NCBI RefSeq assembly: GCF_006345805.1
Contig: NC_043011.1
Coordinates: 31,322,464 to 31,386,463, forward strand
Length of the DNA stretch: 64,000 bases
Direction: 5' to 3'
Origin: Octopus sinensis
Taxonomy: Eukaryota
The notes under the pieces were generated by a model that saw only the letters and a list, made by a program, of their open reading frames with translations, ran no database searches and was not told the origin of the DNA. The position numbers were made by a program, and so were the translations under genes. This document shows, piece after piece, positions 50,354 to 54,018 of the stretch. The stretch's first letter is position 1. The number at the start of each line of letters is the position of its first letter.

Positions 50354-51425
50354 AAGAAACTTGATACCTGATAATTCCAAAACCTTTTTTCTAATTTCTT
50401 CATGCTTTCTAATTGGCCAGGCATTAATTTATTCTAACAAATTAGATGAAATGTGAGAGGAAGGTGATCTGTCTGCAATATTTTGTTTCTTAATTAAGGA
50501 AACACTGCTTGGTGAAAAAGAGTTCTATCTGTTTTCTAAAACTCATTTATTTCACTTCATTAGCCAGTAATGGGTTTTTTTAACAAGAAAGAAATGGGTC
50601 GCACCCTGCCTGACATTTAAATTAACTTTGCGGCTAACTTTTTAATCTTTTCTTTCTTCTGAAGTAATTGTGTGGTTGCCTTTAATAGTTTCAATCCACC
50701 TAATTACATTGGTTGTCATTTAATATAAGCTCGTTACCCAATGGGTAATTTCTTTCGCTTCTAGGTTTGTTATTTTTTGTTCTATTATTTGGGAGTATTA
50801 TTTAAATATCATGGTAACTCAGTAGTATAATAAGGAGGAATGTTACCCATAGTACAGAAGCAGGGTGTTACCTATGACAGAATGATGGTGGATGGGAGCA
50901 ATGTAATGGTACAGAAATGTGGGTTCCTGTCTGATAAAAACTTACCTGTGTTTTGGCATCTGGTGGCTGACCTGTTTTCTTAGGTGCAGACATGGCTGTG
51001 TGGTAAGAAGCTTGCTATCTGACCACATGGTTCCAGGTTCAGTCCCACTGCATGGCACATTTCCCCTCCTCAAAAACCAGTTTTCTGATTCCTTGGGTTC
51101 AAAAAAGAAATCACATTCTGCAGAAGAGAAGAATATTTGGAGTGCTGATTCAACACTATCCCTACTTTTGAATGTTTTTTCCACAGCAAAAAGAGAGAAT
51201 CTGATGATACCAGGTCCAGTGAGTAGGGAGGATGAACTTCTAGAGCAGTGTTTCTCAACCTTTTTACTCTTGTGTAACCCTTAAAATAAATTACATGTCT
51301 CAAGTAACCCTTGCACAAAAAAATTATATACTATATCTTTCTCATATATTTTTCATCATAATTCACATATTATATATATATAGCTACTACACGCATTTTT
51401 TTCTCTCCTTGTTTTTTTCTGTGTA

Positions 51426-51463
51426 TCTTTCTGTCGAAGAGCGTAGGCTCGAAATGTAAAAGA
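51426..51463 (+). ncRNA. Hammerhead-like motif with variant core CUGUCGA
   Basis: TCTTT-CTGTCGA-A-GAGC-GTAG-GCTC-GAAA-TG-TA-AAAGA; same family as 7501-7692. Confidence 0.55.
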
Positions 51464-51660
51464 CTTTTTCTATTCCTGAGCGCTATACTAATACATTTGT
51501 TTGTTTGTACTCCACCTGCCTTCGTCTTTTGTTTATTTTCGTAAACTTTCCCTTTATATATATATATATATATATGTAGGTCCCGGGTTGAGTCGGGGTT
51601 AACCACAGTAAATAAGGTACTCAATACATAGCAGAGTAAATTAATTTATTTTATAGAAGG

Positions 51661-51711
51661 AGCTTCTACAGGACTAGAACTGTTTCATTCAAAAGAAATC
51701 ATCAGGAAGCT
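51661..51711 (-). ncRNA. Type I hammerhead motif (minus arm of fold-back)
   Basis: AGCTTC-CTGATGA-TTTCTTTTGAAT-GAAA-CAG-TTCTAGTC-CTG-TA-GAAGCT. Confidence 0.8.
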
Positions 51712-51806
51712 AGGTGACAAGAATAGTTTTGGCATTTATACACTTAGGCAGGTTTAAAGTGTATAAATGCCTAAGTGTATAAATGCCAAAACTATTCTTG
51801 TCACCT

Positions 51807-51856
51807 AGCTTCCTGATGATTTCTTTGAATGAAACAGTTCTAGTCCTGTAGAAGCT
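51807..51856 (+). ncRNA. Type I hammerhead motif (plus arm of fold-back)
   Basis: 6-bp stem I AGCTTC/GAAGCT, CTGATGA 51813-19, weak stem II, GAAA 51831-34, stem III CAG/CTG, GUA site with cleavage predicted after 51850. Confidence 0.8.
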
Positions 51857-51871
51857 CCTTCTATAAAATAA

Positions 51872-51917
<46 letters not shown>

Positions 51918-52222
51918 GTATGTATGTATATATATAATGACCCTCCATGTTTGTTTTTGTTTGGTTTCCTTGTATGTCTCCACTATCATTTTTTTGTTCC
52001 AAACTTTGATCCTCCATAAATCCTACATTTTATTTTAGAATTGGTGGGAGCAACTGTCTTTGAAGACTCATATTGTCATTGAATACTTGAAATAAGGAGT
52101 AGATAGACAGCCAACAACTGATGATGCATTTACTTGTCCTGTTTTCCATTTATTTTCTCTTGTTGTTTATGTATTTCATGTTATCTACACCATTGGTGAC
52201 ATCCTACACCCATATATGCATG

Positions 52223-52272
<50 letters not shown>

Positions 52273-52567
52273 TAAATCCCTAAAAATGAAGAACAAACAG
52301 AAGGAAAAACACTACAATGCAAGGATGTGGTTCATGCGAAGTAGTAGCTTAAGCTCAGGGAAGGAAAGAAAGGTAGTTTTACGTTTTGAGCAAAGCTCCC
52401 TCTCTCTATATATAGTATATATATATATATTTATATCAAAATAGTGTTAGAGATAGAAACACCCACAACTTCATCAACACCGAATGGTATTAACTCAACC
52501 AAGCCATAAAATGTTAAATATTATACTTACTATTTATATTCATAATCCCCAAATTTTCCATATTACG

Positions 52568-52663
52568 GACTACACGTGTTTCATGAGGGTACATATGGTA
52601 TTGTCAAGACACAAAGTCTCATTCAAAAATTCATTATGTTTATGCACTCCCAATCGTCAGGTC
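52568..52663 (-). ncRNA. Type I hammerhead motif with long stem II
   Basis: Minus: GAC-CTGACGA-T-TGGGAGTGCATA..(~45 nt)..TATGTACCCTCA-T-GAAA-CACGTG-TA-GTC; palindromic stem III ACACGTGT. Confidence 0.78.
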
Positions 52664-52740
52664 TACTTTTCCCACATTTATAAATATAACTACTCCTTAT
52701 ATATATAAGAAGTAGTTATATTTATTGATATTCCCTAATT

Positions 52741-52804
<64 letters not shown>

Positions 52805-52971
52805 TCATCATCATCATCATTATTGTTTAATGTCCGCTTTCCATGCTAGCATGGGTTGACTTAGGTCTGGCGAAGCAGATGGCTGCACTCGACTCCAATC
52901 TGATCTGGCAGAGTTTCTACAGCTGGATGCCCTTCCTAACGCCAACCACTCTGAGATATATACATATATAC

Positions 52972-53007
<36 letters not shown>

Positions 53008-54018
53008 GGTCGTTATATAATAGGGTTAGATAGGATGATGTCTATATTGCAATAACCAATAATATGTTGTGCATGTACAGTAATATTATGATCATGAAAT
53101 TAGCATTAGTTTATCTCGCTTTTCTCGCGGACTCCCAACAAACCTATTGCAGAACTCTAGGGTTCTGGGGAATCCTGATTGAGAAACGCTGTTCTAGAGG
53201 CATCAGCATCACAGCCAAATGACTTTATCTTTCCTTGGGTTATTTTTACTGGATGTGGCCTTGCATTATCACGTTACAGGGTTAGTCCTTTTCTATTGAC
53301 AAGAACTGATTGTTTTTTTTTTTTAGCAAAGCTTGATTGATATCTTTTATGTTTTTAATTATTTCAGTTGTTAGAGTGTGGCCATGCTGGAGCAATGTCT
53401 TGAAAGGTTTTTAGTTGAATGAGTCAACCCCAGCACTAATCTTATTTTCTTTTAAGCCTGATACTTATTCTGTCAGTCTCTTTTGCTGAGCTGCTAAGTT
53501 ATGGGGATGTAAACACACCAACACCTGTTGTCAAGCAGTGGTGGGGACAAATACAAAGGCACACACATTCACACATATGCATACATGCGCACGCGTGCAT
53601 GCACACACACACACACACGGTGGGTTTCTTTCAGTTTCCATCTGCCAAATCCACTTACAAGGCTTTGGTTGGCCCGAGGCTATAATTGAAGACACTTTCC
53701 CAAGGTGTTATGCAGTGGGACTGAACCTGGATCCATGTGGTTGGCAAGCAAGCGTCTTACTGTACAGCTACACCTATTCAAGTTTAGACAATAAAATTCT
53801 GTGGTAATGCTTTTCCCTTTTCTGTGGTGATGCTCACTAAAATCTTCTCTGGGTGTAGATCTGGTTTGGGTGTTGGAACTGGATTTTCATTTGGCAGTAG
53901 CCATAGCTTCTTGTGTTTATTGTTGGCATAGGCTATCCATTTATCATCCCTTTTCACAATTTGATTAAGTAAAGGTGTTTGTTCATTCCTGGTATATAAC
54001 TTGTCACAAATTGTTGAA

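What the first reader, a model, noticed from the sequence alone, without database searches (positions are those of the whole stretch)
51246..53191. A hAT MITE loaded with a stack of ribozyme elements, inside a shattered mariner
Intact TIRs and TSD enclose 1.95 kb in which (TA)n tracts separate five short elements: variant-core family (51372-51555), ambisense fold-back (51577-51874), degenerate motif (52054-52110), second decayed variant-core copy (52270-52400) and long-stem-II hammerhead (52435-52740), plus an RTE tail. The (TA)n seems to act as a self-renewing landing pad, and the composite could in principle still move as a DNA transposon. The host mariner (51075-55880) also took a SINE and an RTE.
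Basis: partly seen in the sequence, partly recalled or inferred. Interest (0 to 1): 0.7.

Follow-up and report, generated by a model that had tools for sequence, protein, structure and literature searches.

The report
Retrotransposon pile-up in a MITE microsatellite
An old short DNA transposon carries its own TA repeat, and at this one spot six unrelated repeat fragments sit in that repeat (at least three are cut-off ends of Penelope-type jumping genes with hammerhead-shaped RNA motifs); they likely landed one after another, and no second copy of the whole stack was found.

Summary
The anatomy is real; the 'ribozyme-loaded transposon' reading is mostly not. A hAT MITE (TIRs 13/15, perfect 8-bp duplication) interrupts a decayed mariner. 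Empty copies are about 315-400 bp with a native (TA)n tract; 17 of 36 copies carry cargo there, often SINE or RTE pieces. The five inserts are independent high-copy families whose 3' ends abut (TA)n (26/30 unselected copies of A versus 13% background). A ends a Neptune/Nematis-type Penelope-like element (PLE); B and E end Hydra-type PLEs, and the 'ambisense fold-back' is the known PLE inverted-plus-tail insertion. D belongs to a separate canonical-core family and has lost its core; C forms no proper hammerhead. Divergence from family majority runs from 0 to 11%, so arrival was likely serial. No second composite was found. PLE hammerheads and (TA)n targeting are published. The oddest part is family A: 15,055 exact motif copies, with U at core position 6 in 99 of the first 100 listed and position 7 free; cleavage is untested. 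This scan noted that family and the PLE reading before, on other DNA (e1-9559914, e1-9500873).

The parts
51238..51245 (.). left 8-bp target-site duplication
   Evidence: identical to 53192-53199
51246..51370 (+). hAT MITE 5' arm with TIR
   Evidence: 684 candidates, best 39 others 91-96%; TIR 13/15
51371..51382 (.). (TA)n, remnant of the MITE's native tract
   Evidence: TA run at this position in empty copies
51383..51554 (+). A: 5'-truncated 3' end of a Neptune/Nematis-type PLE; minimal hammerhead layout 51426-51463 with U at core position 6; C15.2 changed to U at 51455 in this copy
   Evidence: RT, CX4CxxC linker and GIY-YIG upstream on the same strand in 5 of 24 long copies; 1 of 172 bases from majority
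51577..51636 (-). B tail: 60-nt extension found at one end only
   Evidence: 14 of 28 family copies continue into it and then into (TA)n
51637..51874 (.). B: inverted pair of 5'-truncated 3' ends of a Hydra-type PLE, canonical minimal hammerheads at 51705 (-) and 51813 (+)
   Evidence: RT and EN remnants between inverted B ends in L153, EN in L151 and L154; 0 of 105 from majority
51938..52223 (+). C: 3' part of an old, abundant repeat that ends at (TA)n; no well-formed hammerhead; parent unidentified
   Evidence: 3931 candidates, 81-87%; majority and fold
52270..52398 (-). D: 3' end of a separate family with a canonical-core minimal hammerhead; this copy lacks the 5' half of the core
   Evidence: PLE origin inferred from layout only
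52436..52704 (-). E: 5'-truncated 3' end of a Hydra-type PLE; hammerhead with long stem II, core at 52660
   Evidence: two direct E copies flank RT and EN remnants with a CxCX5C linker in L155; inverted E before RT and EN in L230
52705..52745 (+). short inverted piece plus tail end of E
   Evidence: matches E 245-290 on the other strand and the tail end seen in other copies
52801..52952 (-). retroelement 3' tail with (ATC)n; RTE label recalled, not profile-tested
   Evidence: same tail at 54018-54173 and behind a 935-aa open frame in L152
53008..53191 (+). hAT MITE 3' arm with TIR
   Evidence: matches 3' arms of other copies
53192..53199 (.). right 8-bp target-site duplication
   Evidence: bridged by public contigs
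51075..55880 (-). decayed mariner transposase in four pieces, split by the MITE, a SINE-like piece (about 53370-53780) and a retroelement (about 54018-55540)
   Evidence: translation; weak Pfam PF17906 and PF01359 hits; mariner TIRs not looked for

Best explanation
This is a single-copy nested pile-up: an old hAT MITE with a native (TA)n tract sits in a dead mariner, and that tract likely took six separate retrotransposon insertions over a long time. Shown: the arms, the duplication, the empty family, the independence of the inserts, their (TA)n-flush 3' ends, and coding PLE parents for A, B and E. Inferred: PLE GIY-YIG endonucleases nick (TA)n, reverse transcription starts at the RNA 3' end and stops early, leaving 100-300-bp ends, sometimes with an inverted copy and a tail. 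Each insertion leaves TA on both sides, slippage regrows the tracts, and so the target multiplies. The hammerheads are passengers of PLE ends; in full elements they are thought to cut tandem transcripts as dimers, and here they probably do nothing.
For: Empty copies about 315-400 bp; 21 of 29 have both ends with a 6-8/8 duplication within 1.5 kb, and 8 of the 21 carry cargo. Second sample: 10 of 18; 17 of 36 after removing three shared copies. None of 169 family loci holds a MITE arm within 1.5 kb. (TA)4+ at the 3' end: A 25/29, C 22/29, D 18/24, E 14/29 directly (11 more within 170 nt), B 14/28 directly and 14/28 after the tail, against 695/9893 background tiles and 0/29 for the MITE's outer flank; unselected A copies 26/30 versus 91/720. 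Ages differ: B 0/105, A 1/172, E 10/269, C 27/275, D 14/128, MITE arms 6/114 and 19/171. PLE parents. A whole-composite search returns single components only. The layout and (TA)n bias are published (PMC8557442; PMC4209133).
Against: The stack is extreme: 0 of 169 family loci have two other A-E families within 1.5 kb (19 have one), Poisson P about 6e-6 per locus, though tens of thousands of loci bring that within reach of chance. C and D are as diverged as the MITE, so they could have been present when this copy inserted. No coding parent was tied to C or D. Genome searches score only 40 candidates each, and several loci overlap, so counts are not fully independent. RT pieces gave no Pfam hit; the clade calls rest on motifs.
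Confidence: 0.85

Rival explanations
1. The MITE moved, or can move, as a loaded composite and so spreads hammerhead elements by cut-and-paste.
For: Near-intact TIRs and a perfect duplication. C and D are about as old as the MITE. Two loaded copies (L295, L301) share a SINE-like cargo in one orientation at 76%.
Against: No second composite. Each part's best hits lack the other parts. L027 and L278 hold A-like and B inserts with different cut points from the window's. The family is old: closest 3'-arm pairs differ by 8.7%. A and B arrived after the family stopped spreading, as far as the sample shows.
Confidence: 0.07
2. The stack is kept because it works as a multi-ribozyme RNA-processing cassette for the host.
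For: B and E motifs are intact on paper, and they lie on both strands.
Against: D has lost its core, C has none and carries a 13-bp deletion, and A has a private change in stem III. Old inserts decayed like their families. Minimal PLE hammerheads cut poorly and not as monomers (PMC4209133). B's two arms fold into one long hairpin (-182.7 kcal/mol) that would likely hide both motifs.
Confidence: 0.03
3. The stack is pure chance: independent hits on TA-rich DNA with no feedback from target multiplication.
For: 68 (TA)5+ tracts in this 64-kb window; very large families; the window was picked after the fact.
Against: One tract became seven; about half of the MITE copies are loaded. The number of stacks expected by chance is of order 0.1-1 genome-wide (my estimate). 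This rival differs from the best explanation only in the feedback step.
Confidence: 0.25

Closest known systems
Minimal hammerheads of metazoan Penelope-like elements (Cervera and de la Pena 2014, PMC4209133; parts 1-2 of 4 of the text and parts 1-2 of 3 of the supplement read)
   Same: Type I layout, extra base between positions 9 and 10.1, G10.1-C11.1 pair and palindromic 15.2-16.2 in families A and D; small palindromic stem III in B and E; mostly single motifs from 5'-truncated copies.
   Different: Family A has U at position 6. All 56 rows of their Fig. S3 have A, but their search pattern required it. B lacks G10.1-C11.1. No cephalopod is in their list.
Hydra-clade PLEs (Craig et al. 2021, PMC8557442; section 11 and passages read)
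   Same: C-terminal endonuclease without CCHH, CxCX5C linker (E exact), CxxC and CxH around the conserved E and N, canonical hammerhead, (TA)n insertion, inverted 5'-truncated copy with a one-sided tail.
   Different: B's linker has Y or F for the first C. Tails here are about 60-100 nt rather than 30-40. No tree was built.
Neptune/Nematis PLEs (as summarised in PMC8557442, passages read)
   Same: RT, CX2-5CxxC linker, GIY-YIG with CCHH-type residues, microsatellite bias (parent of A).
   Different: Neptune and Nematis were not told apart; the hammerhead core is variant.
Buster-family hAT MITEs such as Mar (PMC3517528, two passages read)
   Same: Short TIRs starting CAG, 8-bp duplication with TA at positions 4-5 (17 of 21 left-hand duplications, counted by eye).
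   Different: Carries an internal (TA)n that is filled in about half of the copies; no transposase partner identified.
TA-microsatellite-targeting elements as 'safe havens' (MuTAnT, Micron, TAFT; PMC4486113, passages read)
   Same: Many unrelated families use (TA)n as target; nested insertions occur.
   Different: Those are plant DNA transposons that target (TA)n; here the MITE supplies the target and does not insert into it (0 of 29 outer flanks).

Membership tests
hAT (Buster-type) MITE | short TIRs and 8-bp target-site duplication | tested here: met
   13/15 TIR, 8/8 duplication; 21 of 29 other copies with 6-8/8
hAT (Buster-type) MITE | short, non-coding, multi-copy | tested here: met
   empty copies about 315-400 bp, 684 candidates
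hAT (Buster-type) MITE | autonomous partner with hAT transposase and the same ends | not tested
   no transposase search was run
Mobile composite transposon | same composite at a second site | tested here: not met
   only the best 40 candidates are scored per search
PLE (element A) | RT plus GIY-YIG endonuclease upstream on the same strand | tested here: met
   5 of 24 long copies; PF01541 E 0.006, under the cut-off; RT by motif only
Neptune/Nematis PLE (element A) | CX2-5CxxC linker and CCHH-type residues | tested here: met
   CSRPRCRTC linker and C..C, H, H in L262; read by eye, no tree
Hydra PLE (elements B, E) | CxCX5C linker, no CCHH, CxxC and CxH near E and N | tested here: met
   E exact in L155 and L230; B with Y/F for the first C
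Hydra PLE (elements B, E) | DKT and RWK motifs; placement on an RT tree | not tested
   no N-terminal part fetched
PLE (elements C, D) | linked RT and endonuclease | tested here: inconclusive
   tblastn of 55 loci gave 2 loci with endonuclease hits, not shown to be linked
Hammerhead ribozyme (A) | invariant core CUGANGA...GAAA...UH | tested here: not met
   position 6 is U in 99 of the first 100 listed of 15,055 matches, A in 0; other features met
Hammerhead ribozyme (B, E) | invariant core with three stems | tested here: met
   motif scan; the minimum-energy fold does not itself give the three-way junction
Hammerhead ribozyme (C, D window copies) | invariant core with three stems | tested here: not met
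   D lacks the 5' core and G12; C majority closes no stem I or II properly
Hammerhead ribozyme (all) | self-cleavage | not testable with these tools
   only contigs were available
Non-LTR retrozyme | non-coding tandem units, each with a hammerhead | tested here: not met
   A, B and E have coding parents; no tandem array here; C left open

The most novel reading that the evidence does not exclude
Family A's hammerhead, with U in place of the invariant A6, is a working natural core variant that cuts as a dimer (its four-base stem III is self-complementary) and has been kept through several master lineages of a very abundant PLE; and TA-bearing MITEs act as seeds of self-enlarging traps that collect such ends. 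The probability given is for cleavage at a rate that matters in the cell.
Probability: 0.25. Interest if true: 0.6.

Novelty: new member of a known kind. Interest (0 to 1): 0.3.

Why it matters
As a locus it is ordinary genome debris, though unusually dense: one 2-kb stretch records serial (TA)n targeting by PLEs of two clades across 0-11% divergence. It offers a clean way to measure target feedback, because hundreds of MITE copies began with the same single tract and about half are now loaded. The A6U family gives a test of an open question named in PMC8557442, whether PLE hammerheads are needed at all: either the core tolerates a change thought to cripple it, or a family reached over 15,000 copies with a dead ribozyme.

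Tried and rejected
Rfam scan: 0 hits. First link of A to a PLE endonuclease in L224/L228: rejected, since 0 of 19 other copies of that element have A downstream and they share a different 3' end; the true parent came. D as a variant-core copy: rejected. C as a type I or type II hammerhead: neither closes its stems. Pfam on B and E protein pieces: no relevant hit. Homologue search with the B endonuclease among longer proteins: none (weak evidence). PDB search with the L224 endonuclease: none. Protein atlas not available. Duplications around the SINE and the retroelement in the mariner: none in a narrow search. Expression: no RNA holder listed. Empty-site alleles: no joint skipping A or B among the rows shown (tables were cut). 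A computed base profile of the MITE target sites was not done. Literature: 'hammerhead + A6U' gave 3 papers, 2 listed, neither on hammerheads by title, not read; two searches for microsatellite landing pads gave nothing on a MITE-borne pad (listings only). Most subscription papers are not in the library, so absence from print is not shown.

Full report
Setting. The window lies at C15:31322464-31386463 of a 2.72-Gb animal genome, probably an octopus (my inference from size and repeats; some earlier scan notes say the same). It is rich in (TA)n: 68 tracts of five or more units in 64 kb.

The outer element. TIRs at 51246 and 53191 match at 13 of 15 bases and are flanked by an identical 8-bp duplication. 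The 5' arm has 684 candidates; the best 39 others are 91-96% alike. Of 29 fetched copies, 21 show both ends with a 6-8 of 8 duplication within 1.5 kb; 13 of these are 195-442 bp (most 315-400) and have a (TA)n or mixed tract between the arms, and 8 are longer and carry cargo there. A second sample found by the 3' arm gave 18 of 24 paired, 10 loaded; three copies were shared, so 17 of 36 distinct copies are loaded. TA stands at positions 4-5 of the left duplication in 17 of 21 (by eye), the Buster-type hAT pattern (PMC3517528, two passages). The family is old: median 5.3% (5' arm) and 9.6% (3' arm) from the majority, closest 3'-arm pairs 8.7% apart. The MITE splits a decayed mariner just before its HPPYS-type motif; two pieces give weak Pfam hits below cut-off. 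Public contigs bridge the left joint (X3), the right joint (X1, X2, X4) and the MITE-A joint (X3, 84 nt, one difference), so these joints are unlikely to be assembly errors; the runs may include the assembled sample.

The inserts are independent families. Each of A-E has hundreds to thousands of candidates. None of 169 family loci has a MITE arm within 1.5 kb, 19 have one other A-E family, and none has two. Searching with the whole 1946 bp returned only single components among the 40 candidates scored. Distance of the window copy from its family majority: B 0/105, A 1/172, E 10/269, C 27/275, D 14/128, MITE arms 6/114 and 19/171. These samples are the copies nearest to the window's, so the ages are rough, but the spread indicates arrival over a long time, A and B last.

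(TA)n association. Four or more TA units within 30 nt of the 3' end: A 25/29, C 22/29, D 18/24, E 14/29, B 14/28, against 695/9893 background tiles (7.0%) and 0/29 for the MITE's outer flank. The other 14 B copies run through a 60-nt tail and then meet (TA)n; 11 of the other 15 E copies do so within 170 nt. Thirty A copies taken in genome order gave 26/30 against 91/720 (P 7e-20). The RTE-type tail is also enriched, 15/45. Some loci overlap, so the counts are not fully independent.

What the inserts are. B: in L153 an RT piece and an endonuclease piece lie on the strand that ends in B, with an inverted B and tail at the other end; L151 and L154 hold the same endonuclease. E: two direct copies flank RT and endonuclease pieces in L155; L230 has an inverted E before them. 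The endonucleases lack CCHH and have the CxCX5C linker (exact in E, Y/F for the first C in B) and CxxC and CxH at the end, which define the Hydra clade; almost all Hydra families insert into (TA)n (PMC8557442, section 11). The inverted 5'-truncated copy and one-sided tail are the standard PLE layout (same paper, passages), so the fold-back needs no special explanation. Pfam did not recognise these pieces. A: my first link, an endonuclease in L224 (PF01541 E 1.8e-7), was a one-off join, since 0 of 19 sister copies have A behind them. A search with A's upstream region gave 24 long copies, all followed by A; 5 continue on the same strand into a GIY-YIG frame, 3 of them with RT matches, with a CX4CxxC linker (PF01541 E 0.006): a Neptune/Nematis-type PLE. 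D has the same stem II and stem III as A but a canonical core in 22 of 23 copies; the window copy starts inside the core and has G12 changed. C ends at (TA)n, but its majority has the two core halves in orders that close no proper stems, and the window copy has a 13-bp deletion there. No coding parent was tied to C or D.

The hammerheads. A, B, D and E fit the minimal type I motifs described for PLE ends, which are predicted to act as dimers and cut weakly in vitro (PMC4209133, text parts 1-2 and supplement parts 1-2). Rfam misses them. Family A differs at position 6: a 32-nt exact motif has 1,728 copies, and with positions 6 and 7 left open there are 15,055; of the first 100 listed, position 6 is U in 99, C in 1, A in 0, and position 7 is U 48, A 23, C 16, G 13 (counted by hand). 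A free position 7 is what a hammerhead under constraint would show, but the pattern fixed the other positions, and CpG decay explains part of the U. A natural A6C variant cut at under 0.1 per minute (PMC3088659, passages), so A6U is likely slow. I found no paper on it in one search. The scan had already noted this family elsewhere.

How it works. Shown: an empty MITE with one TA tract; seven tracts now; six independent inserts with TA on both sides. Inferred: PLE endonucleases nick (TA)n, copying starts at the RNA 3' end and breaks off early, each event leaves TA on both sides, and slippage regrows it. The pad is not selective: other loaded MITE copies hold SINE and RTE-tail pieces and, by eye, Tc1-like MITEs, and only L027 and L278 hold an A-like or B insert, with their own cut points. 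The stack is at the extreme of the sample (P about 6e-6 per locus under a simple Poisson model), but with tens of thousands of loci that does not by itself prove feedback.

Could it move? Nothing shows that it did. One pair of loaded copies (L295, L301) shares a SINE-like cargo at 76%, which neither proves nor excludes an old composite move. No partner transposase was searched for.

Verdict. A real, dense but passive pile-up of known element types. Interest 0.3. The A6U family and the MITE as a natural experiment on target feedback are the parts worth following.

Noticed in passing
window 7192 (+) and 19837 (-): Two more full-core hammerhead motifs with long stem II (12 and 10 bp) and short stem III, likely other PLE ends.
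   Followed up: no
window 7500-7671 (-): An older relative of family A, 87% alike.
   Followed up: no
window 2107-2247 (-) and 6525-6629 (+): PLE RT and Hydra-type endonuclease fragments by tblastn.
   Followed up: no
L233-L251, about 450-650 nt after the endonuclease stop: A young Neptune/Nematis-type PLE with long open frames whose 3' end carries a hammerhead-like motif with U3 and A8, the covariant core known from Schistosoma, and ends at (TA)n (read by eye).
   Followed up: partly
L228:1400-2000 (-): A chimera: the endonuclease and early 3' UTR of one PLE joined to the 3' UTR of family A, possibly a template switch.
   Followed up: partly
family C, L125, L130, L143: The 3' end is followed, after a TA run, by the family's own 5' start, as in a head-to-tail unit of about 650-700 bp; possibly retrozyme-like.
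   Followed up: partly
L151, L153, L154: The B-family PLE has a 3' UTR of 2-3 kb made largely of degenerate TA/CA repeats, so it may itself seed microsatellite-like DNA.
   Followed up: no
window 54189-54378: Three 62-bp tandem units in the 3' UTR of the retroelement inside the mariner.
   Followed up: no
orientation within 51383-52952: The three left inserts point right and the three right inserts point left, meeting at the (TA)23 at 52224-52269; about 1 in 10 by chance.
   Followed up: no
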